Source: a virus. Taken from it: DNA of 64,000 nt. Where the stretch lies: IMG/VR virus record IMGVR_UViG_3300030061_003170. One strand, given 5' to 3'. This document shows, one piece after another, positions 41,399 through 58,459 of the stretch. Both the position numbers and the translations under genes were made by a program. Under the pieces are notes generated by a model. It saw only the letters and a list, made by a program, of their open reading frames with translations, had not been told where the DNA came from and ran no database searches. How positions within the stretch are numbered: the first letter of the stretch is position 1; the number at the start of each line of letters is the position of its first letter.

Positions 41399-44300
41399 TC
41401 AGTCCTTTAGGATAGATTCCACAATGGGAATAAGTTTTTTGATTAGTTGTTCTTGTAATTTCCGAGAGAAGAAATCCTCAGCCTCCTTTGAGTCGATAAA
41501 ATCGCGAGATGGTCTTTTAGGTTTCTTTCCTCCTAGGGGCCGAGAGCCTCTAAGGCGGCGAGGAGGTGTTTTTTCAAATGCTGAGCCAGTATAGCCTGTT
41601 GGGCCACTAAATGTTTTTCTTTCTCCGGGGGTTGCTCTTTTGGATGGATCAGGGCTGAAGTCTGTCGGTTTACCGGTGCCCATTTGTCCTGTTGAATAAG
41701 TACCCTCTCCCGTTTCAAAATCTAAATCCTGGCTTTGTGCTGAACTGCCATCTTGTGGTTTTTTGGTACCAGTATTGCTTCTGGTTTTACTTTTTGCCAA
41801 GCGTTTGATAGAATTTGTAATTTCATTTTTTAATTTAAAAATAATTTTTTTGTCTGAAAATGCAAGTGCGGCAAAATCCTTTAAATTTTGTAAAACTTTT
41901 TTATATAACGTAGGGTTGTCGAGTGCTTGTTTTAAATTTGCCATGGCTTGATAAACTAACTCGCCACTTGCAACATCTTGATTATTCCCTTGAATTTTGT
42001 TAAAAAGTCGCGTGTATTTTGTGGCGACTGATCGTGGCAATGTTGCCCCCTCATCACTCAAAGTATCATCTCCAACAGCGGGACTAGTGTCTTCTGCATC
42101 CTCTTTAACTAAACGACCTTTTTCTTGTGCCATAAAAATCATAAGAGCAATAAACGCAGCATAATATTCGTCACTTTTTTCACTCAAAAGTTCATTTGTG
42201 GATATGATCTCTTGAAATTTCTCTGGGGTGAAACTTCTAATTATTTTTTTAATCCCAGATCTTTCTAATCCTGTTTCAGGTCTTGCTAAGCGTTTTATCA
42301 CTTGGCTCGTGTTGAGGGTAAAATCAGCACCAGGTACTGGTAATCCAAAGTCTTGATCTGGATCTGTTGAATATGGACCCATTATTTGTCGTTGAGTATC
42401 TGGAATTCCATCTCCATCAGTGTCAATCAACTCCACCTCAACTTCTGGATATTCAGGGTTAATACTTGGTTCCGCCTCCGGATCTATCATCTGTATGTCT
42501 TGTCCACGAACCATGGACTTCACTCCATAATGAGTCTCAATCGCGTTTGAAATTTCAACTAATTTATCAATTGTATCTTGCATGTTTGGAACTTCAATCT
42601 CTCCATCTCTAACGTTGAGGAAAATATTCGCAACAGTTCTAGAAAGATCATTGATCAACTCATTTATTCTTTTGTATGCATCCTCAAGTGTTATTACCCG
42701 GCCTGTTGCTGCATCAAATCTTGAAATTCTAGGGAAAAAGGAAACAATACCACTATCATTAATAATATCAATCATGTTTGTGGCTGTCTGTTGTGCTTTT
42801 GGAAAATTGAAGTCATCCCCTAAATGAACTTTCAGAGAATTATTATATAATTTGTACAGTTCATTATAGGTCCTTTTTACTAATTCCACCTTTTCTTTTC
42901 TAGCGCGAGCATCTTGTTCTTGTAACTGCTCACCTGACTCTGGAACTTCTTCTTGGGCTGCTAGTTTTTCAAATTCAGCCTCTATAACCTTTGCAATAAT
43001 TGCAACTATTCTAGCAATATGCTTTTGAACACTCTGAAGTCTTTCGTTAAATAATTCCTTTAATTTTGTTCCATCAAAACTAGAGTTAATATGCGTTCTT
43101 GTTGCATACTTTTCATATTGCTTGGCCAACTTACTCAGTTCGACTAAAAGATCTCTAATTGATTGAATCTCACCTTTTGTAATTCGGATTCCTTTTGGGC
43201 CGATTGGTATATCTTTTGCTTCAATGTTTCCACGTAATTTACGCATCAACCTTTGTAACCTTGGCGCTCTACTAAAATTTTGTTCTTGGAGGGGTGCCTC
43301 TGGATCTGCTGGTGCTTCTTCCTCTGGTAGTTGAGTAGGCTGCTCTTCGGCGGGAACCTCAACAAAATCAGTCAACGCCTGTCGTTCACCATCATTAAAG
43401 TCTCCGGTCATAATTTGACCAAGAGCAACAATAAGATTGCGCAATAAATCTCCTTGATCCCTTAGCAAGTTTACTCTCATGAAACTCTTGTCGCCCTCAA
43501 AAAAGTTCTTTGCGGGTTCAAGTCTCGCTTTGATAGTTGCTTGATCTCTCTCTGCTGGTTTAAGGTCTTGGAACTCATCATCAATCACTTCAACATCATC
43601 CGCTGGTCGTTGGAGTGGAAGGCTTCTAACAGCACGATCTAATTCTGTGCCAGTTGTAATTGGGTTTCCAAAAATTACTGCGTTAAAATAATTGTATGCA
43701 ATTTTGGGTTTTTCACTGATAGCATTAATAAAAGGTTCTCTATTCTGATCAAATGATTTATCAGATACAATTTCCCATGCTAATTTTGATTGCTTTTTAT
43801 TGAAAAAACTCTCTCCCCTTTCAAAGTCCGTGAGTTCATCAGATACCTGGCCGGTGGCGAACTGCTGGACTCCTCTAAAGAATCCGTACGCTGCCTCTTT
43901 TGTTGGTATGTCCACCTCTTCTTCTAATAATTCTTTACCACCTTTTTCAATGAATTCTCTTGCAAAATCGCTTAAGGCCTTTTCCTCTGGTGGTGTCAGT
44001 TCAGCAATCACAGCCTCAACTTCTTGTTCGCTTGGTGCTTGTACTGGTGCTAGTGCTGCACTAGCGGCATCCTCAAAATCTAATTTTAATTGTGTAACTA
44101 TCCCTGTTTCCTCATCTGTGACATCTTCGTCGGGTATGTCAAAGTTTTCACCCTCTTGTTTGATAAAATTTTTAAGTGCCGTCGTTGTTCTTTGAAGGTT
44201 ATCTACCTTTAAGTTTTGTGCTGCCTCAAGATATGCTGCTTTCCAATCCTCATAGGATACCTCTTTATTATTTATTGTTCTTTTTTTATTTGCATTACCC

Positions 44301-44602
44301 CAGTCGGTAATGTATTTTGCTAAACCTTCCTCAGTTTTTATCTCTTCTAAAAAAGTGTTAATGATATCCTCTACTTGTTTTTCAACCTCTTGTTTAGGAC
44401 CTGGTGTTATGTTTTGTAAAAGTTGTCCAAGTTTATTTGATAAAGAACCTTTTGGTTCTTCTTTTAAAACACTAGCGTTAACCTCTTCAGCAATTATTCT
44501 ATTTAAGACGGAACTGTCAACAGTTTTTGACTCTCTAAGAATCTTCATCATCGGATGATTAAATATCTCTTTTGCTATTTCTCTCTTGTTCATTGGCATC
44601 AC
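41399..44602 (-). CDS. 1067-aa acidic helical protein, possible internal head protein
   Basis: RIIAEEV motif and repeated LxE sites; preceded by terminator plus CTATTTA motif. Confidence 0.55.
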   Translation of the reverse strand: MMPMNKREIAKEIFNHPMMKILRESKTVDSSVLNRIIAEEVNASVLKEEPKGSLSNKLGQLLQNITPGPKQEVEKQVEDIINTFLEEIKTEEGLAKYITDWGNANKKRTINNKEVSYEDWKAAYLEAAQNLKVDNLQRTTTALKNFIKQEGENFDIPDEDVTDEETGIVTQLKLDFEDAASAALAPVQAPSEQEVEAVIAELTPPEEKALSDFAREFIEKGGKELLEEEVDIPTKEAAYGFFRGVQQFATGQVSDELTDFERGESFFNKKQSKLAWEIVSDKSFDQNREPFINAISEKPKIAYNYFNAVIFGNPITTGTELDRAVRSLPLQRPADDVEVIDDEFQDLKPAERDQATIKARLEPAKNFFEGDKSFMRVNLLRDQGDLLRNLIVALGQIMTGDFNDGERQALTDFVEVPAEEQPTQLPEEEAPADPEAPLQEQNFSRAPRLQRLMRKLRGNIEAKDIPIGPKGIRITKGEIQSIRDLLVELSKLAKQYEKYATRTHINSSFDGTKLKELFNERLQSVQKHIARIVAIIAKVIEAEFEKLAAQEEVPESGEQLQEQDARARKEKVELVKRTYNELYKLYNNSLKVHLGDDFNFPKAQQTATNMIDIINDSGIVSFFPRISRFDAATGRVITLEDAYKRINELINDLSRTVANIFLNVRDGEIEVPNMQDTIDKLVEISNAIETHYGVKSMVRGQDIQMIDPEAEPSINPEYPEVEVELIDTDGDGIPDTQRQIMGPYSTDPDQDFGLPVPGADFTLNTSQVIKRLARPETGLERSGIKKIIRSFTPEKFQEIISTNELLSEKSDEYYAAFIALMIFMAQEKGRLVKEDAEDTSPAVGDDTLSDEGATLPRSVATKYTRLFNKIQGNNQDVASGELVYQAMANLKQALDNPTLYKKVLQNLKDFAALAFSDKKIIFKLKNEITNSIKRLAKSKTRSNTGTKKPQDGSSAQSQDLDFETGEGTYSTGQMGTGKPTDFSPDPSKRATPGERKTFSGPTGYTGSAFEKTPPRRLRGSRPLGGKKPKRPSRDFIDSKEAEDFFSRKLQEQLIKKLIPIVESILKD

Positions 44603-44610
44603 CTCAACCT

Positions 44611-44617
44611 TAAATAG
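44611..44617 (-). promoter_or_regulatory. Candidate late promoter CTATTTA
   Basis: Immediately downstream of a terminator and upstream of GAGGT RBS. Confidence 0.6.
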
Positions 44618-44619
44618 AC

Positions 44620-44650
44620 AAAAAGCAGGGTTTTCGCCCTGCTTTGTTTT
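44620..44650. terminator. Intrinsic terminator, probably bidirectional
   Basis: AAAGCAGGG-N6-CCCTGCTTT 9-bp stem with T/A tracts both sides. Confidence 0.8.
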
Positions 44651-44654
44651 AAGA

Positions 44655-44900
44655 TTAATGTTCTGTTTCGGAGTTCATTCCCCGTTGTATTAGATAACTT
44701 ACAATATCTAAGAACTCTGGGTTTTGCCCAAGCATAAACCCAGTCTTACAAACTTGTTCCAGTTCTTCAGGTGTTATTCCAGCCTCCGCTGCATCACAAC
44801 AAGTTAAAATTAAGTTCTGAATGACCTTCATCAACTTACCGGTCTCATCCTGCTCTGCTCTCACTAACAGTTCTTCGAGTATTGGATCTTCAAGTTTCAT
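44655..44900 (-). CDS. Hypothetical protein
   Basis: Start MKLEDP with AGGAGA RBS. Confidence 0.6.
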   Translation of the reverse strand: MKLEDPILEELLVRAEQDETGKLMKVIQNLILTCCDAAEAGITPEELEQVCKTGFMLGQNPEFLDIVSYLIQRGMNSETEH

Positions 44901-44901
44901 T

Positions 44902-45405
44902 TTATCTCCTAATAAATTTTTTCCAAGCATCTGGCATCTCAAGATGATGATAAAAATCAAGAATTGAGAACCTTGGCTCTGATGGTTCCTTTAATAACGT
45001 CATAGAAGCCTCATATGGCGTTTTACAGCCCTTCTTTTGATTACAGCATACACAAGCCGTCACAAGGTTTTCCCAGCCTCCTAGGCCCCCTCTTGACTTC
45101 GGAATGACATGATCCAAAGTTAACTGCGAATGTTTAAATTTGTCACCACAATATTGACAAACGTATTTATCTCTCCAATAAATGTTTCTTCTTGTGGCTG
45201 AGGCTCTAACTGTCTTCTTTCTGATATATGATTTGAGTACTATAACCGATGGAAAGTTATAATCAACACAAGGTCCTTGCTGATGTTCTTCTATCGCTTG
45301 CGCACGACCACCATAAACCATCGAAAACCCTCTTTCAGCAGTAATGACCTCTAGTGGCTGCCATGCAGCATCCAGTTTTAAGGTCATAAGTTTAGCCAAA
45401 ATCAA
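44902..45405 (-). CDS. HNH endonuclease (McrA-like)
   Basis: RDKYVCQYCG, TLDHVIPKSRGG, WENLVTACVCCNQKK. Confidence 0.92.
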   Translation of the reverse strand: MILAKLMTLKLDAAWQPLEVITAERGFSMVYGGRAQAIEEHQQGPCVDYNFPSVIVLKSYIRKKTVRASATRRNIYWRDKYVCQYCGDKFKHSQLTLDHVIPKSRGGLGGWENLVTACVCCNQKKGCKTPYEASMTLLKEPSEPRFSILDFYHHLEMPDAWKKFIRR

Positions 45406-45421
45406 ACCCTCTCCTAAGTAA

Positions 45422-45751
45422 CTAGTTCTTTTTAATTAGTTTAGAAGCCGAGCCTTCCGGGGTTAACTTAGAACTAACAATCTCCTTGAGATCAAAGTTA
45501 TCAATCACCGACTTCAGTTCTCCACATGCTTTTTTGTAATCAGGTTCCATCTCAAGAGTCGTTTTACCACCATGACCATGGATAGCATGAACTTCTCCAA
45601 TACTATCATACACAGTTACACTGGGGTGTTCACTTAGCCATGTCACTGCAACTTTTCCGTTGTCAAAGACAAATCCTTGGGCGACACGTCCCGTTCCTGA
45701 GATTCCACTCTCATCTTCTTCTCTCTTTAAATAAAATATTTTCATAACCAT
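45422..45751 (-). CDS. Conserved phage hypothetical protein
   Basis: LKREEDESGISGTGRVAQG...HGHGG. Confidence 0.65.
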   Translation of the reverse strand: MVMKIFYLKREEDESGISGTGRVAQGFVFDNGKVAVTWLSEHPSVTVYDSIGEVHAIHGHGGKTTLEMEPDYKKACGELKSVIDNFDLKEIVSSKLTPEGSASKLIKKN

Positions 45752-46158
45752 TCATCTTCCGATGATTCTTCTTCCCTATGTAGCGGTTGGTTTTTAACTT
45801 CTGAGGGGGAAGAAATCATCGATTGGGCCTCCCTTCCCCTAAAACTATTGATAAAATTCTCATGTTCCCGTGCGACAAATCTCAAAATGTCAGTTATCAC
45901 CTCAAAAAGGTCCTCGTTGTGAGGAATGATGTTTAAACTAGAATGTTCAATTGACACTTCAGCCATGGGAATTCCTTGTCTTGTTTCAATCATACAACTG
46001 TTGTTATCAAGAGTTGCACAATAATAAATAGTATTATCAGAATACCAATCCACAAACAGTTCAAAATAGGCTTCTTCCTCTTCTGGTGATTCTAGTTCTA
46101 GATTAATACCATTTGTCAATATATCCTTAATTCCTTTTAAGATAAAATCTCTTGACAT
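45742..46158 (-). CDS. Hypothetical acidic protein
   Basis: ORF with AAGGAG RBS. Confidence 0.6.
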   Translation of the reverse strand: MSRDFILKGIKDILTNGINLELESPEEEEAYFELFVDWYSDNTIYYCATLDNNSCMIETRQGIPMAEVSIEHSSLNIIPHNEDLFEVITDILRFVAREHENFINSFRGREAQSMISSPSEVKNQPLHREEESSEDEWL

Positions 46159-46176
46159 TCTCTCTCCTTTAAAAAA

Positions 46177-47484: not shown

Positions 47485-47753
47485 TAATACTTCCAAACTT
47501 TTATAACAAGATCACCATCTCCGCATATTAATCGATGATAAGTCATTTTTGGAATCCAATAACTTTCTCCAATAATCAGAGTTTTTGGCAACTCATTGTC
47601 AAGTTGTAATTTCCAATTCCTACCTTCAACCAACTCAACCTTTCTGTCTTCTTTGTCTAGATGCCAGATAAGTTCATCTTGAGAAGTTTCTTTTTTAAAC
47701 TCTCTCAAAAAAAGTTTTTTTCCAATTCGCATTTCGCTGAATGGGAAATCCAT
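47484..47753 (-). CDS. Small cupin-like protein
   Basis: WHLDKEDR...WIPKMTYHRL. Confidence 0.6.
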   Translation of the reverse strand: MDFPFSEMRIGKKLFLREFKKETSQDELIWHLDKEDRKVELVEGRNWKLQLDNELPKTLIIGESYWIPKMTYHRLICGDGDLVIKVWKY

Positions 47754-48352
47754 TACCAGAACCTACCAGGTACATTCTTGCCAAAATCTTTGTGTGCTCT
47801 ACAAGCCCAATATCCAGCCTTGGTTCTATCTTTCTTTTTCTCGCACTGATGACGGGAAGCAAATGATTTGCGTGCTTCTGGGTTGTTCCAGTTTCCTTTA
47901 AGGCCACCTTTAGAGTCCCCATAGGTGATAGTCTTGACGTTTCCTGTCTTTGGATCACGAACATACACTTTGTATTTCTTGCCACCACCAGAATTCTTCA
48001 TGGGTTTACCAATGGGCTTCTTCTCTTTGTCTTCTTCGATTTCTGACTTTGATTCCTCGATATACATTGGGAAATCCAAAGGAACCTCTTCTCCCTCAAA
48101 CATTACCCACTCACCAAGTTCTGTGTTTTCAAGCATATCTCGTTCTTCATCGTTGACAACTTCGTAAAGACCCATCTTGTAGAACTTACGGCCTTGACTA
48201 ATTGTGTTAAAATAACAAGAAGAACCAACACGAAAAATGTTTTCATGCAAAGGGGTCTTAGTCTTTACGTGTTCCAGCAATCCAGGCTTAAACAAAACCT
48301 CTTGGGTTTCTTCGAGAATAATTCTTTCTATTTGTTCGTTTGTAAATTTCAT
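47753..48352 (-). CDS. MKFT..IIxEE-leader protein with basic C-terminal domain
   Basis: MKFTNEQIERIILEE; KKYKVYVRDPK...ARKSFASRHQC..AGYWAC. Confidence 0.7.
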   Translation of the reverse strand: MKFTNEQIERIILEETQEVLFKPGLLEHVKTKTPLHENIFRVGSSCYFNTISQGRKFYKMGLYEVVNDEERDMLENTELGEWVMFEGEEVPLDFPMYIEESKSEIEEDKEKKPIGKPMKNSGGGKKYKVYVRDPKTGNVKTITYGDSKGGLKGNWNNPEARKSFASRHQCEKKKDRTKAGYWACRAHKDFGKNVPGRFW

Positions 48353-49092
48353 CCTTTTTTACCTCTTTTAGCCTTCTTGCCCCATGACTTTCCTTTGCCT
48401 CGTTCTTTACAAGCACCAGGGGTTGGTCTGCATGCTGGATACTTCTTACGCTTTTCACCAGAACCACGACCGCATGATTTGTAGCCACCCTTGCCGTCAG
48501 GAGCATTACAATCAACCCAACCTTTCTTCTTGCCCTTGGCTCCTTTACGACCGAACCAATCTCTTAATGAAGATTCTTTGCTTGATTCTGTTCCGGCCTT
48601 CTTACGCTTTTTTCTTTTTTTTTTCTTTTCATCAAGGACTGCATCTAATTCTTCCTCGATAATTTTGTTCAACTGTTCTTTAGTGATCTTAATTTCATCA
48701 CCATCACCACGGACATAATCTCCATGATCATGCTCGCCAACATCTTCCATACTGTCTAGAATTTTCTGAATCTCTTCATCTTTGGCTTTTGTAAAAACCT
48801 TCTTGAGAGCCTTCATTCCAAGAGCACCACCTTCTTTCTTAAAGACTGCCTTAACTGCATCGGCAGTTAATTCTTTTTCTTCACTGAGGGATTCATTTTT
48901 CTTTTTAGATTTGTTACCCCAGTTCTTGGCACCGACTTTTCTACATTTAACAAGCGCACCTGAAGCGTATGCTGAAGGCCAAACCTTATACCTTCGCTTA
49001 ACTTTATGATAGCAGGCATCACGTTTTACTTTGGCTTTAGCCTTTTTCTTTTTCTTACGTTTCTTTTTTTCTTCCAAATTATCTTCGAGCAT
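48349..49092 (-). CDS. Highly basic multi-module protein, probable DNA-binding/internal protein
   Basis: Poly-Lys tracts, DACYHKVK..WPSAYASGALVKCRK, internal KITKEQLNKIIEEEL. Confidence 0.7.
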   Translation of the reverse strand: MLEDNLEEKKKRKKKKKAKAKVKRDACYHKVKRRYKVWPSAYASGALVKCRKVGAKNWGNKSKKKNESLSEEKELTADAVKAVFKKEGGALGMKALKKVFTKAKDEEIQKILDSMEDVGEHDHGDYVRGDGDEIKITKEQLNKIIEEELDAVLDEKKKKRKKRKKAGTESSKESSLRDWFGRKGAKGKKKGWVDCNAPDGKGGYKSCGRGSGEKRKKYPACRPTPGACKERGKGKSWGKKAKRGKKG

Positions 49093-49480: not shown

Positions 49481-50350
49481 TTAAATTGAAGTCTTTGCTT
49501 GTTCGTATTCTGGGGTAGTTGGTTCTGATAGTTCAGTTGCCAGTTCTCCTTCGAACTTATCAAAATACAACTTCATGTTTGTGATGAGGTAATCAACAAA
49601 AATCTTTTTGTCTTGAGGATCTGTTAATAAATCATAAGCATCAAGTATGTACTGACTAACTTTCTTGTGAGTAGTATAAGCCATGTTTTTACCAGTTTCA
49701 TCCATTTCTTCCAAACCAGAGCCAAAATCATCTTTTTCTTGTTCGGCAGGAGATTTTTCTTTCTCCCCTTCAATGTCCAAATCTTTTGTAGGATCAGGAT
49801 CAACATCAATGTCGATATCCTCTTCCAATTCGATGTCGTCTAAGTTAAGATCATCAATGTCAGCCAACATTTCATCTGATGGACTGGTTGCTTCTTCGCT
49901 ACCACCAGCAAGACCTGTAGGTTCGGCCATTAATGCACCAGAGTCTTGTAGGTACATGTCATTGACAAGTGCCGGCATGAGTGATTGTTTAACAGCATGG
50001 AGCATGTGTGCCCTGAACGAGTCACGTTGTGCTTTTGATGTCGTGAGGCGTTTGTAATCTGTGCGAAGAGTGGTAATCATTTTTTTCAATACATCTTCGA
50101 GAACATTAATACCGGTAGATCGATGAGGATGCATATCAGAGAGGTCACCTTCCTTGAGAAGTGTTTGACGAATAATTTTTCTTAAACGTTCTTCTTGGAC
50201 TAGTATTTCATCTTTTTGAGCCATTCTTCTAGAGATTTTTTCTCTAATAATTTTTCTTAATCGCTGCTCTTGGATAATTTCATCTCTCATTGATTCTTCC
50301 TTTAGTGTATTAAACAATTGCTTAAATGAAGTAACTTCAACTATGCTCAT
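49481..50350 (-). CDS. Acidic protein with duplicated RLRKIIR motif
   Basis: EQRLRKIIREKI and EERLRKIIRQTLLKE. Confidence 0.6.
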   Translation of the reverse strand: MSIVEVTSFKQLFNTLKEESMRDEIIQEQRLRKIIREKISRRMAQKDEILVQEERLRKIIRQTLLKEGDLSDMHPHRSTGINVLEDVLKKMITTLRTDYKRLTTSKAQRDSFRAHMLHAVKQSLMPALVNDMYLQDSGALMAEPTGLAGGSEEATSPSDEMLADIDDLNLDDIELEEDIDIDVDPDPTKDLDIEGEKEKSPAEQEKDDFGSGLEEMDETGKNMAYTTHKKVSQYILDAYDLLTDPQDKKIFVDYLITNMKLYFDKFEGELATELSEPTTPEYEQAKTSI

Positions 50351-51741
50351 TTGAGTAACCTTTTGATAAGTTTTTTATTTTCTTTAAGAATACTGTTGAT
50401 TGACTCTTTAAGATCTTCCCTTGATATAGCACCACTAACAGCACCGCCACTAGAGGTTTCTTCAAGGCCTCTCGACAAACGGTCTGATGCTCGACTAAAT
50501 GCAGCATTCATATATTTTTTAGATAATGTTTCATCGTCTTTAAAGGCAATAAAACCTTCATCTTCCCTTAGTCTGTTCACTATGTCAATAATTTTCTTAA
50601 CAAACGGTTTTTGTCGCTCAGGTGCGCCTCTATTTGCTTTGAATCTCTTCTGCGCTGCTTCAAGGGCCTCTTCGGGTTCACTATTTCCCTGATCGGCTAA
50701 GTACCTAACATAGCCCATAATAGGTGAACTTTTATACTGATGCCCACCTGGTCCCGGGAAGCCAATCTTTTTCAAGTCAGTAGTCCCCCAATAATCTTTA
50801 TTAAAATCTTGTTCAAGTGCGCCTTTAAATCCCTGAGCAATATTGGAAACATCTCTCTTGATCGTTCCTCCAATACCTCTGAGTGTGTCCATAATGCCTT
50901 CTTCAATCTCTTCTTTCTTTGGACACTTGCATTCCTCACCTTTACCTTCACATTCAGGACACTTTATGCCCATCTTTTCCAAGTCAGCATCAGTTGGTGT
51001 ATCACGTCCACTCGAGGTGAGACTTTGGGTGTATAGATCTTCTATTTTTTCGGCAGTTCTTTCTTTCTCTCCGTATTTTAAATTTACATATTTCTTCATA
51101 AAATCGGGATCTACACTATAGGTTACATTGGCTTCCTCGAGTTCTTCACCTCCAGAGGCACTAATAACATCAGCGCGTGTCACTTTGTCCTTTGGCGGCT
51201 CTAGTGCTGCAAGTTCATCCTGTGACAACTTCTTTTCATTAAGGATGTTTGTCTTGATTCCCCACTTCTCCATAAGGTTTTCAAACAATTCTTTGTTTTT
51301 CCATTCTCTAAGTGACATTTGATTCTCCTGTGTCTTTAAAGTATCCTCGTATTCACGAAGATAGTGATTACCTTCAAGCATTGCTTCTTGCTCTAATTCT
51401 TTTAAGGCTTCATTGTGTAAATAGTATCCTTCTCCATGATAGCCTCCAACGTCCAATCTGCCCTCTAAATTCTGTTGATGATGAATTAATTCATGGGCAA
51501 TTGAACGAAGCATGTCTTTTGGATGTCTACCATCAGTGTAAACATGTATCTCAAACGTCTGAGGATCGTAATACGCTGTCTTTCCAAGAGTATTGGGGGC
51601 ATTACTAGGGTCGGAGTCTAAGAAGAGCGTAGGAGGCCTAGAGAAGCCAATCTGATCATCGAAATGTTTGTACATTCCTTGAATATGCTGTTCAAGATCT
51701 CCGAGATCCATACCAGAATTGTTTATAACCTTACAATGCAT
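50347..51741 (-). CDS. N-terminal HExxH metallopeptidase-like domain plus LxE-punctuated tail
   Basis: AYYDP..HPKDMLRSIAHELIHHQQ..EQEA. Confidence 0.65.
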   Translation of the reverse strand: MHCKVINNSGMDLGDLEQHIQGMYKHFDDQIGFSRPPTLFLDSDPSNAPNTLGKTAYYDPQTFEIHVYTDGRHPKDMLRSIAHELIHHQQNLEGRLDVGGYHGEGYYLHNEALKELEQEAMLEGNHYLREYEDTLKTQENQMSLREWKNKELFENLMEKWGIKTNILNEKKLSQDELAALEPPKDKVTRADVISASGGEELEEANVTYSVDPDFMKKYVNLKYGEKERTAEKIEDLYTQSLTSSGRDTPTDADLEKMGIKCPECEGKGEECKCPKKEEIEEGIMDTLRGIGGTIKRDVSNIAQGFKGALEQDFNKDYWGTTDLKKIGFPGPGGHQYKSSPIMGYVRYLADQGNSEPEEALEAAQKRFKANRGAPERQKPFVKKIIDIVNRLREDEGFIAFKDDETLSKKYMNAAFSRASDRLSRGLEETSSGGAVSGAISREDLKESINSILKENKKLIKRLLK

Positions 51742-52148: not shown

Positions 52149-52477
52149 CAATTAAATCCTAGCAAAATCACTTCTTCTTTAGGTACTCTGATGATTAAAC
52201 CACTTGCGGCAACATAATGAGAGTATAAATAGTAGTATTTGTCTTCATCTGGGTCTTTCCAAGGCATAACGAAGTATTCAGACCGTCTTGGGACCCTAAC
52301 TGGCTTCTTATCAGTAAAAGAATAGTAGTGACCGTAGCCTTCCCCTTTTATAATTGCCAAAGGAAGCAACTGACCAGTGTCAGAGATGGTAAATGATTGC
52401 ATTTTCGTGGCTAAAGCACGCGGTTTTTTGTAAAGACTCTCTTTGCTTATCTTGTTTAAGAGTTTTTTCTTACTCAC
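52148..52477 (-). CDS. Hypothetical protein (start uncertain)
   Basis: ORF track 52148..52549 trimmed to GTG overlapping the upstream stop. Confidence 0.5.
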   Translation of the reverse strand: MSKKKLLNKISKESLYKKPRALATKMQSFTISDTGQLLPLAIIKGEGYGHYYSFTDKKPVRVPRRSEYFVMPWKDPDEDKYYYLYSHYVAASGLIIRVPKEEVILLGFN

Positions 52478-53699
52478 CGCCGCCACCGTCTCCTCCGCCG
52501 CCGTCTCCGAACGAACCATCAGAAGATGAGGTGTCATAATAGCCTCCATAAGGCCAGTATGCTACTTTACGTCTTCTTTTTTTAGATTTTTTCTTCTTTT
52601 TCTTGCGTTTTTTCTTTTTTTCATCCAAATCATTGGTGATTTTAATTTTTATTTTTCTTTTTTGCTCTTTTTCTTCCTCAAAAACACCAAAACCAACAGG
52701 AGCATTCTCTCCTCGGTTATAATCCTTGACTCTTTTGAGTCCTTGCGCCCCAGTTGACTTAGCGCCCCCCTGTCCGATCAGCGCTTTCTTTTTTTTGGCA
52801 TACCCTTTCTTCATTCTTTTCTGAAAAGTGTACGATTCTTCAAGGGTTGCATCACTTTCATACAGGTCAATGCATCTTTTAAGCAACTCAGTGGCGCCTT
52901 CTTTGGCTTTTATCATGATATGTTCAATATCATGGACATAATATTCAGTATTTTCCTGATCCAGTTGTATCACACCGTCCAATTCATCGCTTGAATAGTT
53001 TGTTCTGCCGAGAAAATAGTGTATTGTTTCATCTTTTCCTCTAAAACTGAACTCTTGTGACTCAATATACTGCAGGTGGACCATTTGAAAACCAATTTCT
53101 TCCCTTACTTCTCTAAAAAACCCATAGTTTGGAGTCTCACCAGAGCGACAGTGGCCACCTGGAACATCCCATTCGCCTGTATCTGCTCTTTTAAGGATGA
53201 TTAAGCGATCATCTGAAGTCTTAACAAAGCCTTTTGACACATTATCGGTGTCTTCAAGCCCTTCATCAGGATACTTGACCACAATATCAAAGTCATCATG
53301 CAGTTTTCTAAAGGCAACTATGCCTTCGTGTTCTTTAGGACAGTCATCAAAGTGTAGAGACGACCCTAATTCGTATAGTTTTTGTGCTTTTAACTGACCT
53401 TCAGTGTAATAAACAGGCACATCGATTTCTAGTTTCTCTAAATATGTGCTAACTGCGAAGCGTGGCTTCTCTAAAGCCTTTCTTCTAGCGGTCACAATCA
53501 AGACAGAGTAACCTTTTTTCTGAAATTGTTTTAAAGTGGCAACCATTTGTTGGTTAATCCCACCAAAACGCCAGTCATCTTCACCTTCTTCGTCAAACAT
53601 TTCGTGATGAAAGACTAAAGTGTTGTCAAAATCAAAGGTGACAACCTTTCCGTTTTTATTTTCGTTAAGATTTTCCATAATTTTTAAATATTTTTTCAT
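52470..53699 (-). CDS. HAD phosphatase-Nudix hydrolase fusion with polybasic tail
   Basis: FDFDNTL, VTAR, HFDD; Nudix box PGGHCRSGETPNYGFFREVREEIG; DEKKKKRKKKKKKSKKRRRK. Confidence 0.8.
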   Translation of the reverse strand: MKKYLKIMENLNENKNGKVVTFDFDNTLVFHHEMFDEEGEDDWRFGGINQQMVATLKQFQKKGYSVLIVTARRKALEKPRFAVSTYLEKLEIDVPVYYTEGQLKAQKLYELGSSLHFDDCPKEHEGIVAFRKLHDDFDIVVKYPDEGLEDTDNVSKGFVKTSDDRLIILKRADTGEWDVPGGHCRSGETPNYGFFREVREEIGFQMVHLQYIESQEFSFRGKDETIHYFLGRTNYSSDELDGVIQLDQENTEYYVHDIEHIMIKAKEGATELLKRCIDLYESDATLEESYTFQKRMKKGYAKKKKALIGQGGAKSTGAQGLKRVKDYNRGENAPVGFGVFEEEKEQKRKIKIKITNDLDEKKKKRKKKKKKSKKRRRKVAYWPYGGYYDTSSSDGSFGDGGGGDGGGGE

Positions 53700-53718
53700 T
53701 TATAAGTCACCTATTATT

Positions 53719-53747: not shown

Positions 53748-53756
53748 GTTGTTATT

Positions 53757-55247
53757 TTAACTAACTTGGCTAAAATTACCAAAATCAATTATAACTATTT
53801 CTCCGGTATCGTCCTTTACCATCACATTAAGGCTGTGAAGGTCTCTTGGTACCAATCCAACCTCATCTCTAAGGGCAACAAATGATCTTTCAAGCGATTT
53901 TGCTGCTTCTGGCATGTCCTCACGTCTCCCACCGGCAGTGTTATCCAGTGTAGATGAGTAATACCCAGTAGGGATCACTGTAAACTGTCTCGGATACTGA
54001 ACGGCATCCTCAATCATCATGATAATTTCGCTAACCATGTCCTCTCTGTAGGGTAATCTGGCAATTACTTCAACAATTGAAGCAATAACAGCCATAATTC
54101 CAAGTTTTGACACCATTCTGTCGCCATAATCTGAGTTTATGACCCTTTCTGTGTTGTCAATTGCTCTTGCGGTCCTAGGAAACGCCTCTAAAACGTTATT
54201 TTTGGCAATATTGTACCTTGTAAGCATCGCATCGTCAGAAATTCTATCAATATTTACAAAATAATTGTAAAAAACGCCCATTGCGGCATCACGAAAGCCT
54301 TGAGCAATCTTAACTTCCTCTGGACCCATCGCAGACCAGTCTAATTCTGACATTAAGCCTTGATATAGATCAGCAACCATGTCTTCGACCTGTCCTATGC
54401 TGTGTAAAAAGACATTTTCTACTCTTCTATCAACACTAACCTCTCTATCTTGCAGTTGAGGTTCGTCTGAGAGCGGCAATGGTTCATTAAAACCCAAATT
54501 ATCTCTCTGCAAGTAATATTCAAGGCCAGCAAACAGACTATTTACAATTTCTTGAGAGTAAGGACTAGGCTTAACCAGTTCCATGATGACATAACCAAGT
54601 ATTCCATCGTCAATTATCTTCATTCCGCCTTCATAAACCTTTGGAAAGTGCTTTGCAACCTTTTCATTGGCATCTACAGCAATACCTACGTTCTCATAAT
54701 TACTGATTTCCTGCTGTATCTTGAAAGTATCGGCAGATCCTGGTTGGTTTCCAGTCTCACTGCTAAGAATCTTTACCGCAACCACTCCAAACTCAGGGTG
54801 ATTTCCCTTGTAAACGTTACCAAACTTACCAGATGCGATGTATTCGAGGCCAGAAACTCCAATTAAGTTCTCTATCTCCATCGCATTCAACTCTTCTTTG
54901 ATAACTTCCTTTAATTCACCCATGTCTCTTAGCACGGAGGCAACATAAGCAGAAGCCTTTTTTTTAGATAGACCCTTGGTTCGCTTAATGCAACGCACTT
55001 TGCCATCAAAAGTTTTGTTATCAAAACAATCTTTTTTCTTTTCCTCTAGGGTTCCATCTCCATAACCACCACCGTATTCCCAATCGGGTTCATCCCAGTG
55101 AAATGCTTTGGCTTCTAGTTCCAACTCATCTTCCATTACATTTTGAAGACCTTGGTGTTGAGATCTTTCAACATGCCCCGCATGCTCTGCCTCTCCAGAA
55201 TGAATTTTTATCCTGAAATATCCCTTTGTCCCGCTGGTTGAAAACAT
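53757..55247 (-). CDS. Atypical Ser/Thr protein kinase-like protein
   Basis: IASGKFGNVYKG, VAVKIL, QEI, YVIMELV, RDLHSLNVMV, IIDFG. Confidence 0.8.
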   Translation of the reverse strand: MFSTSGTKGYFRIKIHSGEAEHAGHVERSQHQGLQNVMEDELELEAKAFHWDEPDWEYGGGYGDGTLEEKKKDCFDNKTFDGKVRCIKRTKGLSKKKASAYVASVLRDMGELKEVIKEELNAMEIENLIGVSGLEYIASGKFGNVYKGNHPEFGVVAVKILSSETGNQPGSADTFKIQQEISNYENVGIAVDANEKVAKHFPKVYEGGMKIIDDGILGYVIMELVKPSPYSQEIVNSLFAGLEYYLQRDNLGFNEPLPLSDEPQLQDREVSVDRRVENVFLHSIGQVEDMVADLYQGLMSELDWSAMGPEEVKIAQGFRDAAMGVFYNYFVNIDRISDDAMLTRYNIAKNNVLEAFPRTARAIDNTERVINSDYGDRMVSKLGIMAVIASIVEVIARLPYREDMVSEIIMMIEDAVQYPRQFTVIPTGYYSSTLDNTAGGRREDMPEAAKSLERSFVALRDEVGLVPRDLHSLNVMVKDDTGEIVIIDFGNFSQVS

Positions 55248-55267
55248 AAATTACCCTTTAAACACTA

Positions 55268-55274
55268 TAAATAG
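55268..55274 (-). promoter_or_regulatory. Candidate late promoter CTATTTA
   Basis: In 28-bp gap upstream of kinase gene. Confidence 0.55.
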
Positions 55275-55275
55275 T

Positions 55276-56826
55276 TTAACAACCCCAAACTGCATACTCT
55301 ATTTCGATTGTTTGACCCTCTGCTGGAACGTGGCCTTCATTGAAAGTAACTGAATTAGTGACAGAATCATAAGTCCATTCAGATGAGACTTGACCATTGA
55401 CAGTCACGATTATCGTATCTAGTATTGGATCTTCTTCATCTAGTCCGTATGTAACACGGTCAGTTAAGGTAGAACCTAGTGCCTGCAGTTGAGTGCCCCA
55501 ATCAACAGCGCACAATGAATACCAGTCTCCACCATAGTGATTAACAAGATCCCAATAGCCAGCACCAAACTCAATGTTTCTAGGGAACGCATGTACGGTT
55601 GATTGACACCCTGTTGGAGGGTCTCCAATAACAGCATAAGGAACAAACATGCCGGTATCCTTGAGGCCATCGAAGAATTGAAGATAAGTAACCCATGGAG
55701 CAGACCAGTCCTTCTCATCAGAAACAAAAATCACAATGAGCGAAGCCTCGTCCCTAAAAAATTGTGATCCAGGACCGGCAATTGCAGGGTTCGATAGCGC
55801 TTGAAATGCCATCTCTATGCCTTGTTCCATCCCGGCACCCATGATACCTACGTTAACCATATTGGCGAGTGCCATCTCCGGCATAGGCGTTCCATTGTTG
55901 ATAATTCCATGGAGGTAAGGACTAGTAGTTGTTATTACAGACATATTGTAGTCAGGCGCACTAGCAAGAAATGCTTGGAAAAAAGAAAATATTTGATTTG
56001 CCAATAGAGATTGGTAAGGATTCATAGAACCAGAATCATCGATAACCCATAGAATGTCAAGAATCTCAATGGGAGTTTGCTCGTGTCTTTGATAATGCCA
56101 TTGCTCAACGTCACCACTTCCTTCTTGTTCAGCAGTAACCTCAGGACGAATAGGATCATTTGATTCAATAACGACTTCGCTTCGATCCCACCCAACATCA
56201 CTCGGAACATAGGTGACAAGAAAATCAATTTCGGTATCAGGTTCAATCGTCCAAGGAGGCGGAGGCATCGACCCAAAATTTATTTTTATATCAACGGGAT
56301 TGTTTACCATTTGAGATACATTCTCGATAACCAAAGGCATATTGCCATCATTTCGAAGTGTAACTCGCTCCTCATTGTCACAACCTATCGATACATCGCC
56401 ATAATCAAACAGAGACGGCGTTACAGACAAGACGGGGGCATTACCATAGCCTTCCAAGTGAACGCGCACTACAGGCTCATCAGGGTCATTAGATGCAATC
56501 TCAATAAACCCACCATTGGATTCAAATGTCTGGGGAATGTATGATACATCAAATACAAGATGTTCTCCTGGTGCAATCACCCATGACTGTTCCGGAATAC
56601 CACCCAGAGAGAAGCGATCATTTCCCGATACCAATTGAGGAGTCTGGATTGTAAGATCGCGTTGCCCACTGTTAATAACGGCAAACTCTTCCAGTGCGGT
56701 TTCTTCACCGGAGGTGAGATGCCCAAAATTTATATGCTCCGGAAATGCCATGATGTTTTGCACATCAGGTTTTGCGGTTAACGCAATGTCCGAGCACCCC
56801 AGTAAAGCAAGTAAAATCCATAACAT
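55276..56826 (-). CDS. Lipoprotein with two Ig-like (ASH/choice-of-anchor D) domains and a vWA domain
   Basis: Lipobox LLALLGC; repeated xFG..N.G..L.I...F.V.Y.P...I.SNDP; MIDAS DDSGSM and FVSDE. Confidence 0.8.
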   Translation of the reverse strand: MLWILLALLGCSDIALTAKPDVQNIMAFPEHINFGHLTSGEETALEEFAVINSGQRDLTIQTPQLVSGNDRFSLGGIPEQSWVIAPGEHLVFDVSYIPQTFESNGGFIEIASNDPDEPVVRVHLEGYGNAPVLSVTPSLFDYGDVSIGCDNEERVTLRNDGNMPLVIENVSQMVNNPVDIKINFGSMPPPPWTIEPDTEIDFLVTYVPSDVGWDRSEVVIESNDPIRPEVTAEQEGSGDVEQWHYQRHEQTPIEILDILWVIDDSGSMNPYQSLLANQIFSFFQAFLASAPDYNMSVITTTSPYLHGIINNGTPMPEMALANMVNVGIMGAGMEQGIEMAFQALSNPAIAGPGSQFFRDEASLIVIFVSDEKDWSAPWVTYLQFFDGLKDTGMFVPYAVIGDPPTGCQSTVHAFPRNIEFGAGYWDLVNHYGGDWYSLCAVDWGTQLQALGSTLTDRVTYGLDEEDPILDTIIVTVNGQVSSEWTYDSVTNSVTFNEGHVPAEGQTIEIEYAVWGC

Positions 56827-56833
56827 AAAAAAC

Positions 56834-56855
56834 CCTCCTATAGTTAAATAGGAGG
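56834..56855 (-). promoter_or_regulatory. RBS-sequestering hairpin overlapping CTATTTA motif
   Basis: CCTCCTAT-TTAACT-ATAGGAGG perfect 8-bp stem containing the SD. Confidence 0.7.
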
Positions 56856-56890
56856 ACTTTCACACAATTGTCAATTAAGAGGCAATTTTA

Positions 56891-57556
56891 TCATACATAC
56901 TGGCCCGGAGACGTACTGCGTTGATTTTGTTCGATTTGCGCATTTTCGAATCCAACGTAGTATCTATCCTGCTCTTCATCGGTTAAGTCATCAGGGTTAA
57001 TTTCATTTTGACCTTCCATTTTACCACCAGCGGCACCATCAGCCCTACCGGCCATTTCAATATTCAACAAGTGCTCGGCTTCCAACTCTTGCAGTGCTGG
57101 AAGAAGAGGCGAATTAAGAACGCTTTGGATAAATTCGAGTCGTTCCTTTAAATCTTCAATGTCTTCGGGACGATCAAAGGCTAGGTCATAGGACATATCC
57201 ACCATTTGATTATAGTGTCGCTCATCCGTTTCATCCATCAAGGGAGAAAGAAGCGGCTCAACTTGGCTAATGTAACCACCATACGGTTGCAGCAGTTTTG
57301 GTAGCCCACCATTGTCTTCACCTGGGGCACCGTCTAACACATGCTCAAGAGCACTCTCAATAAATTCTTCTTCTTCGGTTATATAGTCATCGAGGTTATT
57401 GATTTGCACCAGTACAGCACTGATTTCACCGATTGCTTGCACGGCACCGTCTGCCATTTGTTTAATAAGATAATATATATTATCTTCTCCTTCATTCATC
57501 ACGGCATCAATCTCTTCCTTGATGATTTGCAATATTTGTTTTTGTGTAAATTTCAT
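56891..57556 (-). CDS. MKFT..IIKEE-leader acidic protein
   Basis: MKFTQKQILQIIKEEIDAVMNE. Confidence 0.7.
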   Translation of the reverse strand: MKFTQKQILQIIKEEIDAVMNEGEDNIYYLIKQMADGAVQAIGEISAVLVQINNLDDYITEEEEFIESALEHVLDGAPGEDNGGLPKLLQPYGGYISQVEPLLSPLMDETDERHYNQMVDMSYDLAFDRPEDIEDLKERLEFIQSVLNSPLLPALQELEAEHLLNIEMAGRADGAAGGKMEGQNEINPDDLTDEEQDRYYVGFENAQIEQNQRSTSPGQYV

Positions 57557-57566
57557 TGTTTATTCC

Positions 57567-57872
57567 TTATATTAATGCGAATGCATCATCGCCGTCGTCA
57601 TCTTTTACCATTTTAATCGCTTCGTTTTCAAGCATTTCTTTAAGTGCTTCTTCAAGTTGTTGTGTGAGTTTTGGTATAGCGGTTGGACTTGGTGCTGGAT
57701 TTCCTGGTGAGTCATCACCATATATTTCATCAAACAATTCTTTGAAAGTAAAATTTCCAAATTGTAATTCATCTTTTATTTCTTGTTCTAGATCCATGTG
57801 ATCATCTTCACTAAGCACGGCGGCGATTTCTTCCTTGATTATTTGCGTTATTTGTTCTAATGTAAACTTCAT
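57567..57872 (-). CDS. MKFT..IIKEE-leader acidic protein
   Basis: MKFTLEQITQIIKEEIAAVLSE. Confidence 0.7.
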   Translation of the reverse strand: MKFTLEQITQIIKEEIAAVLSEDDHMDLEQEIKDELQFGNFTFKELFDEIYGDDSPGNPAPSPTAIPKLTQQLEEALKEMLENEAIKMVKDDDGDDAFALI

Positions 57873-58459
57873 GATAATTCTTTCTCAATTTTGTCGGCAA
57901 GTTTTGGATTAATTTCTCTAAGATCCTGCATGGTAAAATCTAAATCTTGGGGGTTTGGAATTTGTATACTGTTTAGTGATTCTAAAAGCACTTGTGCTAA
58001 TTTTATAATCTCTGGCATTCTAAAATATCTTGGATTGAGATCGCCCGCTGTACCAGGAATCATCGCATCCGAATTCATAAAGAGACCTTTCATATAGGAT
58101 TGCGTTTTTTCATCTACACCAGATTCTTCAATCGCGTATTTCATAGTGTAATCAACCGCATTCGGGAGAAATCGTTGGTCAAAAATATCTAATGCTTTCT
58201 CATTTGCGGGTGGCCTCATTCGTGGGAGGTCTTGTAGAGCGGCTACATCTTTTGTAGGTTCACCCGTGTAACCGGTTTGATCATCAGGCTCAAAATAAGT
58301 TAAAGCGTTAGGGCTTGCTGCATCTGCGAGAAAAAACTTCACCATCATAATAGGAATTATCGGCAACGACGGACCCCTTTGATCGTTCACTTCTTCTCCC
58401 AATACAGCAGCAATTTCTTCTTTGATAATATTCATCACTTGTTCTTGTGTAAACTTCAT
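57869..58459 (-). CDS. MKFT..IIKEE-leader protein
   Basis: MKFTQEQVMNIIKEEIAAVLGE. Confidence 0.7.
   Translation of the reverse strand: MKFTQEQVMNIIKEEIAAVLGEEVNDQRGPSLPIIPIMMVKFFLADAASPNALTYFEPDDQTGYTGEPTKDVAALQDLPRMRPPANEKALDIFDQRFLPNAVDYTMKYAIEESGVDEKTQSYMKGLFMNSDAMIPGTAGDLNPRYFRMPEIIKLAQVLLESLNSIQIPNPQDLDFTMQDLREINPKLADKIEKELS

What the first reader, a model, noticed from the sequence alone, without database searches (positions are those of the whole stretch)
41399..58459. Portable MKFTxxQIxxIIKEE leader on unrelated proteins: candidate capsid-targeting and protease-release system
Seen: near-identical ~22-aa N-termini on four otherwise dissimilar proteins (47753, 56891, 57567, 57869), three of them ending in AV[L/M]xE. 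Internal versions occur in 48349 (KITKEQLNKIIEEELDAVLDE), the kinase (LKEVIKEELNAME), 49481, 50347 and 41399. LxE sites fall at domain borders. Known: T4 internal proteins carry a short capsid-targeting sequence removed by gp21 protease after [L/I]xE. Inference: a modular tag loads diverse cargo (kinase, peptidase, basic peptides) into the head for release and injection, and new cargo is recruited by leader fusion.
Basis: partly seen in the sequence, partly recalled or inferred. Interest (0 to 1): 0.8.

Follow-up and report, generated by a model that had tools for sequence, protein, structure and literature searches.

The report
Portable capsid-address tag of marine phages
Four unrelated small proteins of an uncultured marine T4-like phage start with the same 22-residue tag, a tag that heads thousands of different proteins in phages carrying the T4-type head-maturation protease. 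It is most likely their version of T4's capsid-targeting signal, but packaging and cleavage have not been shown.

Summary
The core observation is real. Four minus-strand ORFs (47753, 56891, 57567, 57869) begin MKFTxxQ(I/V)xxII(K/L)EE…, their bodies are unrelated, and 48349-49092 holds one strong internal copy. The other "internal versions" (kinase, 49481, 50347, 41399) score at noise level.

The tag is not local. A profile of 25 leaders hits 8,488 protein clusters (50% identity) in public metagenomes. Complete genomes carry 2-11 tagged genes, often in tandem arrays, and in-frame fusions also occur. Every leader-bearing IMG/VR record that is at least 90% complete (6 of 6; 20 of 28 overall) encodes a T4 gp21-type (Peptidase_S77) prohead protease. 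I12-x-E14 is invariant and fits the gp21 site rule (L/I)-x-E. Some tagged genes lie inside head modules, one of them abutting the protease gene. Paralogous leaders differ at synonymous sites, so selection acts on the peptide. A relative shows a divergence breakpoint at the leader/cargo junction.

The best reading (about 0.6) is a counterpart of the T4 capsid-targeting sequence. Packaging, cleavage and injection are inferred, not shown, and the kinase and peptidase are not supported as cargo. First readers and one follow-up of this scan flagged the same MKITK-type leader on other DNA. No paper describing it was found. I class it as a new variant of a known kind.

The parts
57869..58459 (-). Tagged gene 1 (196 aa). 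Leader is aa 1-22 (window 58394-58459), MKFTQEQVMNIIKEEIAAVLGE. The body is acidic (net -11).
   Evidence: In homologues the leader is 90.6% identical pairwise and the body 56.6%. AF2 predicts leader helix 5-21 followed by a disordered linker, at low confidence.
57567..57872 (-). Tagged gene 2 (101 aa), overlapping gene 1 by ATGA. Leader is at window 57807-57872, MKFTLEQITQIIKEEIAAVLSE. The body is very acidic (net -16).
   Evidence: Relative L062 has two different small tagged genes at this position.
56891..57556 (-). Tagged gene 3 (221 aa). Leader is at window 57491-57556, MKFTQKQILQIIKEEIDAVMNE. The body is very acidic (net -34).
   Evidence: No Pfam or PHROG hit and no Atlas look-alike.
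47753..48352 (-). Tagged gene 4 (199 aa). Its leader is the most divergent, at window 48287-48352: MKFTNEQIERIILEETQEVLFK, which keeps I-L-E but has no second xLxE. The basic body has a phrog_7595 C-terminal domain.
   Evidence: The body occurs without the leader in phage immuto and as the C-terminus of a 650-aa Melnitz protein. Its C-terminal domain is widespread in marine phages.
48349..49092 (-). In-frame fusion protein (247 aa). The parts are a basic N-part with a SAYASGALVKCRK domain (aa 1-133), an internal leader at aa 134-155 (window 48628-48693, IKITKEQLNKIIEEELDAVLDE, first codon ATT), and a poly-K plus Cys-rich part (aa 156-247, net +29) whose free-standing homologues give sub-threshold or threshold DUF5872 Pfam matches.
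   Evidence: 491 clusters of 100-130-aa free-standing homologues of the C-part all start with a leader-like ..LxxIIxEEhxAVLxE directly followed by poly-K. DUF5872 match. The N-domain is 94% identical over 35 aa to proteins of 369 cyanophage records.
54876..54914 (-). Weak leader-like stretch LKEVIKEELNAME at the border between the variable N-extension and the kinase domain of ORF 53757-55247.
   Evidence: 3.0 bits, E 4, so not significant alone. A similar stretch, LIKEQLEIVE, occupies the same border in relative L062.
44456..44506 (-). Weak leader-like stretch LNRIIAEEVNASVLKEE near the N-terminus (aa 33-49) of the 1067-aa ORF 41399-44602.
   Evidence: 1.4-4.8 bits, not significant.
58460..58700 (-). 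Conserved non-coding region upstream of the tagged-gene cluster. It holds a G6/C6 hairpin, a T-run, and TATAAATG at -50. Together with the upstream gene and the leader codons it forms one block that is highly conserved at the nucleotide level.
   Evidence: 88-100% nt identity to relatives L062 and L063. No Rfam match. Fold z-score -1.8.

Best explanation
The ~22-residue leader (consensus M-K-[IF]-T-K-x-Q-L-x-x-I-I-K-E-E-h-x-x-h-L-x-E) is the counterpart, in a large group of uncultured marine T4-like myoviruses, of the T4 capsid-targeting sequence. The proposed mechanism has three steps.
1. As a short N-terminal helix, the leader docks the protein onto the scaffolding core while the prohead assembles.
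2. The gp21-type (Peptidase_S77) prohead protease then cuts it off, after the invariant I12-x-E14 and/or the frequent [LIVMF]-x-E ending at residue 21/22.
3. The freed bodies either stay with the DNA and may enter the host with it (for example the very basic C-part of ORF 48349-49092, related to DUF5872-bearing proteins), or act as auxiliary core proteins and leave the head (the very acidic ones).
New cargo is acquired or swapped by recombination at the leader, and in-frame fusions of neighbouring tagged genes give polyprotein-like forms.

Shown here:
- portability of the leader
- peptide-level selection on it
- restriction to S77-encoding T4-like phages
- location in the head module in some genomes
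- a divergence breakpoint at the leader/cargo junction

Inferred: docking to the core, cleavage, retention in the head and injection.
For: 1. Five copies in the window at E 1e-8 to 1e-14 on unrelated bodies.
2. Exact DNA-pattern scans of IMG/VR found the motif preceded directly by a start codon in 23 of 25 loci.
3. A profile of 25 leaders hits 8,488 clusters at E<=1e-3 among 1.84 billion representatives. Of the top 150 hits, 147 have no Pfam domain.
4. Near-complete genomes carry 2-11 tagged genes, all on the coding strand and often in tandem arrays. The reversed-pattern control gave 0.
5. Peptidase_S77 is present in 20 of 28 leader-bearing IMG/VR records and in all 6 that are at least 90% complete. 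It is also present in 3 of 5 'MAG' assemblies whose contigs carry leader arrays.
6. In 185,579 species genomes the motif occurs only in 14 loci, all on MAG contigs.
7. M1, K2, T4, I12, E14 and E15 are invariant. I12-x-E14 fits the T4 gp21 rule. A second [LIVMF]xE ends at position 21/22 in 64% of 239 instances. Multiple sites within one propeptide are known for T4, phiKZ and SPN3US (PMC5694885).
8. The gp23 of five leader-bearing phages has a conserved ELLRE|[AS] where T4 gp23 has FLTE|AEIGG.
9. A tagged gene abuts and overlaps the protease gene in L078, at the position of T4 gene 68. Another sits just upstream of terminase and portal in the complete genome G002.
10. Paralogous leaders share 10-17 of 22 residues but only 36-52 of 66 nucleotides, and 3-7 of the identical residues use different codons.
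11. Window versus L063 nucleotide identity is 85-97% through the first 60 nt of the ORF and then drops to 38-72%. Relative L062 has four tagged genes at the locus against three here.
12. T4 IPII and IPIII start MKTYQEFIAE|A and IPI starts MKTFKEF…ITE|A. According to the T4 literature, targeting lies in the N-terminal part of the CTS and processing at residues 8 and 10 (PMC9026906).
Against: - There are no proteomic or biochemical data for any leader-bearing phage. Cultured relatives (HTVC008M, Melnitz, Mel-JY01, S-SM2, immuto) lack the strict motif, and tblastn with the leader against 50,697 phage records found nothing.
- Similarity to the T4 CTS is limited to MK…Q/E…I-x-E, which is too short to show homology.
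- Three of the four tagged bodies are strongly acidic, so retention beside packaged DNA is not obvious.
- Expression time is unknown. TATAAATA is not enriched. The only late-promoter-like site is TATAAATG at -50 of the cluster, and it reads TATGAATG in L063.
- The helical hydrophobic moment of the leader is not above that of shuffled sequences, and the AF2 model has low confidence.
- Internal copies imply that a cut after the leader would leave the leader attached to the upstream module.
Confidence: 0.6

Rival explanations
1. The leader is an uncleaved N-terminal interaction helix that brings many small proteins to one common partner unrelated to the capsid, such as a host target, a phage chaperone, or self-association. 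The link to T4-like phages would then reflect lineage only.
For: The leader is predicted helical and detached from the body. In the window the tagged genes lie among non-structural genes such as the kinase and the NUDIX/phosphatase gene, not in a head module. The acidic bodies are atypical of DNA-associated internal proteins. There is no direct evidence for cleavage.
Against: The invariant I-x-E and the frequent second h-x-E match the protease rule. S77 is present in all 6 records that are at least 90% complete. One tagged gene is translationally coupled to the protease gene and another lies next to terminase and portal. In the family of free-standing homologues of the 48349 C-part, the leader ends exactly at h-L-x-E before the poly-K body.
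Confidence: 0.2
2. This is simple paralogy: tandem duplicates of one small gene whose bodies diverged beyond recognition while the N-terminus stayed conserved. There would be no address function.
For: Three of the four tagged genes are adjacent, tandem arrays are common, and the bodies are mostly small proteins with no recognised domain.
Against: The 47753 body has clear homologues that lack the leader or sit at the end of a 650-aa multidomain protein. The 48349 C-part belongs to a different, well conserved family that carries its own leader. The divergence breakpoint falls exactly at the junction. The leader is 91% conserved against 57% for the body, which requires a separate constraint on the leader in any case.
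Confidence: 0.08
3. The conserved unit acts at the nucleic-acid level, as a translation-initiation region or a recombination cassette comparable to the mobile regulatory cassettes of T4-type phages, and the peptide is incidental.
For: Between orthologous loci the leader codons and the 240-nt upstream region are 88-100% identical in nucleotides, including synonymous sites, and identity drops right after the leader. 53 of 72 leader genes have a Shine-Dalgarno core upstream.
Against: Within one genome and across lineages the leaders keep the amino acids while codons vary freely. Internal in-frame copies stay conserved as peptide. Recombination at the leader is compatible with the address-tag reading and is part of it.
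Confidence: 0.05

Closest known systems
T4 capsid-targeting sequence (CTS) of internal proteins IPI, IPII and IPIII (also Alt, gp67, gp68), removed by the gp21 prohead protease
   Same: Both are short N-terminal propeptides shared by otherwise unrelated proteins. Both start MK…, end in (I/L)-x-E, and occur in phages with an S77 protease. In both, cargo genes are polymorphic between relatives. The T4 literature already proposes the CTS as an evolutionary device for loading varied proteins into the head (PMC9026906, PMC3012670; T4 sequences).
   Different: The leader here is about twice as long (15 invariant or near-invariant positions plus a semi-conserved tail) and has no demonstrable homology to MKTYQEFIAE. 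It is far more widely used: 2-11 genes per genome, tandem arrays and 8,488 clusters. It also occurs internally in fused, polyprotein-like ORFs. Many bodies are strongly acidic. Nothing has been shown experimentally.
Propeptides of head and ejection proteins of giant phages (phiKZ gp175, 201phi2-1, SPN3US gp245; MEROPS S80)
   Same: Many head proteins are cut C-terminal to Glu after a short motif. Propeptides hold several sites, and the paralogues gp53 and gp54 of SPN3US share an identical 15-residue N-terminus (PMC5694885).
   Different: The protease family is different (S80 rather than S77) and so is the motif (A/S/G-x-E). No single portable leader shared by dozens of unrelated proteins has been described there.
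Encapsulin cargo-loading peptides
   Same: A short portable peptide directs diverse cargo into an HK97-fold shell, so cargo can be predicted from the tag alone (own knowledge).
   Different: These peptides are usually C-terminal, are not cleaved, bind the shell interior directly, and belong to a cellular compartment rather than a virion.

Membership tests
T4-type CTS / internal-protein system | Short N-terminal sequence shared by otherwise unrelated proteins of one phage | tested here: met
   Four N-terminal copies on bodies with no BLASTP similarity. The same holds in other genomes.
T4-type CTS / internal-protein system | The leader ends at, or contains, a gp21 consensus site (L/I)-x-E | tested here: met
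   I12-x-E14 is invariant in 25 of 25 aligned leaders. A second [LIVMF]xE ends at position 21/22 in 64% of 239 instances and in 3 of the 4 window leaders. Whether either site is cut is unknown.
T4-type CTS / internal-protein system | The phage encodes a gp21-type (Peptidase_S77) prohead protease | tested here: inconclusive
   This could not be tested for the window's own phage: there is no head module in the window and no whole genome is held. In other leader-bearing records, 20 of 28 IMG/VR records have it, including 6 of 6 that are at least 90% complete, as do 3 of 5 MAG assemblies.
T4-type CTS / internal-protein system | Sequence homology to the T4 CTS (MKTYQEFIAE) | tested here: not met
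   Only MK, a Q/E and I-x-E are shared, which is too short for any statistical support. The claim is therefore 'works like', not 'is homologous to'.
T4-type CTS / internal-protein system | Tagged proteins are incorporated into the prohead core and the leader is removed on maturation | not testable with these tools
   This needs virion or prohead proteomics or packaging assays. No cultured phage with the strict motif was found.
T4-type CTS / internal-protein system | Cargo genes are polymorphic between related phages while the leader is kept | tested here: met
   L062 has four tagged genes against three in the window, with different small bodies. The identity breakpoint falls at the leader end versus L063. 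The leader is 91% identical and the body 57%.
Sec/Tat-type signal peptide | Hydrophobic core of at least 10 uncharged residues after a basic N-region | tested here: not met
   The leader is charged throughout (K2, E6, K13, E14, E15, E22; net -1.5 to -2.5) and has no hydrophobic stretch.
DUF5872 (PF19197), for ORF 48349-49092 | Match to the Pfam model above its cut-off | tested here: inconclusive
   The window protein gives no Pfam hit at E<0.01. Free-standing homologues score 14.7-30 bits against a cut-off of 27.5.

The most novel reading that the evidence does not exclude
The MKITK/MKFT leader is a universal address label of a large clade of uncultured marine T4-like phages. On this reading the thousands of domain-less proteins that carry it make up a packaged, and partly injected, proteome that can be read directly from sequence. 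Many of them, notably the very acidic ones, could be co-injected anti-defence or host-takeover effectors. The leader would also serve as the recombination junction through which cargo is exchanged, and fused multi-leader ORFs would be polyproteins cut apart inside the head.
Probability: 0.3. Interest if true: 0.8.

Novelty: new variant of a known kind. Interest (0 to 1): 0.6.

Why it matters
If the reading holds, a simple sequence tag would identify which proteins of uncultured marine myoviruses are loaded into the capsid. That covers more than 8,000 clusters of proteins with no known domain. First-minute effectors that may be injected, such as anti-restriction, host-takeover and DNA-condensing proteins, are hard to find by homology. 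The tag would turn 'which phage proteins travel with the DNA' into a question that can be addressed with existing viral-particle metaproteomes. It would also extend the T4 CTS principle, so far documented for T-even coliphages, to ecologically dominant ocean phages. Finally, it would offer a natural tag for loading foreign proteins into non-model phage heads.

Tried and rejected
- The search for related loci for the 57869 family in IMG/VR gave nothing. In metagenomes it gave three short contigs only.
- blastn of the cluster against the phage collection gave no match.
- tblastn of 25-26-aa leaders against 50,697 phage records gave no match. The cause may be the low-complexity filter or a true absence.
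- The strict DNA pattern was absent from cultured relatives HTVC008M, Melnitz, Mel-JY01, S-SM2 and immuto. Only the 484-kb uncultured phage LR756508 has three one-mismatch variants.
- The first pattern attempt had a miscounted run of N and returned nothing. It was corrected.
- AF2 of the 57869 protein gave mean pLDDT 55, too poor for a fold search. The Atlas search for 56891 gave no usable hit.
- Pfam and PHROGs show nothing for the leader or for most bodies.
- The T4 late promoter TATAAATA is not enriched.
- Helical hydrophobic moment is not above shuffles, so I do not call the leader amphipathic.
- Similarity of the leader to the N-terminus of the small conserved protein downstream of the protease (MKKEELKAALKPLIKECIKEVMFE) is visible by eye but scores about 2 bits. 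I keep it as a lead only.
- Rfam and folding of the conserved upstream non-coding region gave nothing decisive.
- A literature search for the motif string and for marine CTS-like leaders found no description.


Full report
**What is in the window.** Nearly all genes lie on the minus strand. The window belongs to a distant T4-like myovirus.
- It has a gp6-type baseplate wedge about 30% identical to those of Microcystis phage Mel-JY01 and Flavobacterium phage immuto.
- It has a gp55-like late sigma factor, many sugar-modification genes and an exonuclease, and one tRNA-Arg. ORF 40054-41397 was not scanned; I read it as PhoH-like from its sequence only.
- A 1.85-kb Tara Oceans contig is 100% identical to the tagged-gene cluster, so the source is marine.
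- No head genes lie in the window.

**Check of the observation.** Four ORFs begin with near-identical 22-residue leaders: 47753-48352, 56891-57556, 57567-57872 and 57869-58459.
- After residue 24 the proteins show no BLASTP similarity (best E 0.35).
- A leader HMM scanned over all six-frame segments (965 segments, 65 kaa) finds five strong copies: the four N-termini and IKITKEQLNKIIEEELDAVLDE at aa 134-155 of ORF 48349-49092. Their E-values are 1e-8 to 1e-14, and everything else is at E>=0.35.
The 50347 stretch is not detected.

**The leader is a widespread, portable unit.**
- An exact DNA pattern for K-F-T-x2-Q-x3-I-I-x-E-E found 25 IMG/VR loci. In 23 of them the motif follows directly on a start codon of an ORF with a different body.
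- A profile of 25 leaders (alignment A2; invariant M1, K2, T4, I12, E14, E15) matched 8,488 cluster representatives at E<=1e-3 and 98 at E<=1e-10 among 1.84 billion.
- 147 of the top 150 have no Pfam domain.
- Near-complete genomes carry 2-11 strict copies, all on the coding strand and often in tandem arrays. A reversed-pattern control gave none.
- In 185,579 prokaryote species genomes the motif occurs in only 14 loci. All are on MAG contigs and several are multi-copy arrays on 100-300-kb contigs that look like mis-binned phage.

**Selection acts on the peptide.**
- Within the window, paralogous leaders share 10-17 of 22 residues but only 36-52 of 66 nucleotides, and 3-7 of the identical residues use different codons.
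- Leaders from other genomes use quite different codons for the same residues.
- In the 57869 family the leader is 90.6% identical pairwise and the rest 56.6%.

**Modularity.**
- The body of 47753 occurs without a leader in phage immuto and as the C-terminal part of a 650-aa multidomain protein in phage Melnitz.
- The C-part of 48349 (poly-K, Cys-rich) exists as 491 clusters of free-standing 100-130-aa proteins, some of which match DUF5872. All of these begin with a leader-like ..L-x-x-I-I-x-E-E-h-x-A-V-L-x-E that ends exactly before the poly-K run.
- In the window this unit is fused in frame behind a SAYASG-domain gene, and its start codon reads ATT.
- Such fusions are common in the database. 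Of 239 motif instances in the top 150 hits, 119 are internal; 84 of those keep the Met and are preceded by ..E-[GNS]-K. I read that pattern as an in-frame footprint of the former ribosome-binding site: 53 of 72 free-standing leader genes have a Shine-Dalgarno core at -16..-4.
- The relative L062 has four tagged genes at this locus against three here.
- Against L063, nucleotide identity is 85-97% from the upstream gene through the first 60 nt of the ORF and then falls to 38-72%. Synonymous sites are conserved on one side only, so this marks a recombination breakpoint at the leader/cargo junction.

**Link to the head and its protease.**
- Peptidase_S77 (T4 gp21) was found in 6 of the first 10 leader-bearing IMG/VR records and in 14 of 18 large ones. 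All 6 records that are at least 90% complete have it. It was also found in 3 of 5 MAG assemblies.
- By CheckV completeness, all the fragments come from genomes of roughly 180-340 kb.
- In L078 a tagged gene (MKITESQLKQIIDEEIMAMIE…) overlaps the start of the protease gene, which is the position of T4 gene 68.
- In the complete genome G002 a tagged gene sits just upstream of terminase, portal and protease.
- The gp23 of five leader-bearing phages has a conserved ELLRE|[AS] where T4 gp23 has FLTE|AEIGG, so an L-x-E site at the propeptide border is kept.
- The invariant I12-x-E14 fits the same rule, as does the second h-x-E at position 21/22 (64% of instances). Several sites within one propeptide are known from T4, phiKZ and SPN3US (PMC5694885).

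**Comparison with what is known.**
- T4 IPII and IPIII start MKTYQEFIAE|A, and IPI starts MKTFKEF…ITE|A.
- The first ten residues suffice for packaging. Targeting lies mainly in the N-terminal part of the CTS, particularly residues 4 and 7, and processing at residues 8 and 10. T-even relatives carry different internal proteins behind a CTS-like sequence (PMC9026906, PMC3012670).
- The present leader works like this on all computable counts. It is longer, not demonstrably homologous, used far more widely, and also found inside fused ORFs.
- I found no paper describing it.
- First readers of this scan flagged the same MKITK-type leader on several other genomes with the same reading, and one follow-up treated it as a probable head-packaging tag. 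Those notes are unverified leads, not evidence.

**What remains open.**
- Nothing shows packaging, cleavage or injection.
- The cultured relatives lack the strict motif, so no virion proteome applies.
- Three of the four tagged bodies are strongly acidic (net -11 to -34). They may be auxiliary core proteins that leave the head, or DNA-mimic-like effectors. Only the basic bodies resemble classical internal proteins.
- Expression time is unknown. An array of eleven sigma-70-type promoters (TTGACA-N16-18-TACATT) ends at 59,444, just upstream of the cluster. The cluster is therefore a separate unit, but the T4 late-promoter motif is not enriched.
- The AF2 model is poor, and the leader is not measurably amphipathic.

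**Verdict.** The core observation is confirmed. The best explanation is a CTS-type prohead-targeting propeptide cut by a gp21-type protease (confidence about 0.6). This is a new variant of a known kind.

Noticed in passing
window 59385-63869, minus strand: Eleven copies of TTGACA-N16-18-TACATT lie inside an ~80-nt repeated intergenic element, each about 30 nt upstream of a small ORF with an RBS. This looks like an array of sigma-70-type early promoters in a region of higher GC (0.46). None occurs on the minus strand below 59,400.
   Followed up: partly
window 58460-58700, minus strand: A ~240-nt non-coding region upstream of the tagged-gene cluster is 88-100% identical in nucleotides to two relatives whose downstream protein is only 44-63% identical. 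It contains a G6-N4-C6 hairpin, a T-run and TATAAATG. There is no Rfam match and the fold z-score is -1.8. It may be a promoter or leader RNA, or simply part of a recently exchanged block.
   Followed up: partly
window 48916-49020 (aa 25-59 of ORF 48349-49092): A 35-residue stretch (…YHKVKRRYKVWPSAYASGALVKCRK…) is 91-94% identical to proteins of 369 cyanophage records (T4-like gene cluster 119 in S-SM2). That is extreme conservation for a domain of unknown function. A similar SAYVASVLR stretch lies in the N-extension of the kinase.
   Followed up: partly
window 47753-48352; L082 (Melnitz 14914-16866); L033 12013-12570: The body of tagged gene 47753 is fused to a protein whose N-terminus (…GRFNPPTTGHEKL…) looks, by eye only, like a nucleotidyltransferase in Melnitz. 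In phage immuto it lies next to a gene annotated as NAD synthetase. This hints at a function related to NAD or nucleotide metabolism rather than a classical internal protein.
   Followed up: no
window 52470-53699: A 409-aa protein combines a PNK3P-type phosphatase domain and a NUDIX domain, followed by a poly-K tract and a Gly/Asp-rich end.
   Followed up: no
window 50347-51741: A 464-aa protein has an HExxH motif (HELIHH). It has no Pfam hit, only a weak PHROG hit, and no leader.
   Followed up: no
L050 12042-12485; L052 11566-11991; L026; L080: A small conserved protein (141-147 aa) directly downstream of the prohead protease starts MK(K/R)EELK..L(K/R)PLIKECIKEV(M/I)FE. By eye this resembles the leader, but the score is only about 2 bits. 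It is a possible core partner or ancestor of the tag. T4 gp22 likewise starts MLKEQLIAEA, which resembles the T4 CTS.
   Followed up: partly
L050 12486-12725; L052 11372-11566: A ribosomal-protein-S21-like gene (phrog_21469) lies inside the head module next to the protease in L050. The matching small basic ORF in L052 is judged similar by eye and was not scanned.
   Followed up: no
L058-L060 (LR756508, 484-kb uncultured phage): Three ORF starts differ by one mismatch from the leader pattern (MKIKEKKLRKIINEE, MKLTQTKLQKLIKEE, MKVSADTLRKIIKEE). This suggests related leader variants in a megaphage that also shares the gp6-type wedge protein.
   Followed up: no
window 55276-56826: A 516-aa protein has an N-terminal signal or lipoprotein-like sequence (…LLALLGCSD…) and two HYDIN/ASH-type Ig-like domains. 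It is conserved next to the tagged cluster in relative L062.
   Followed up: no
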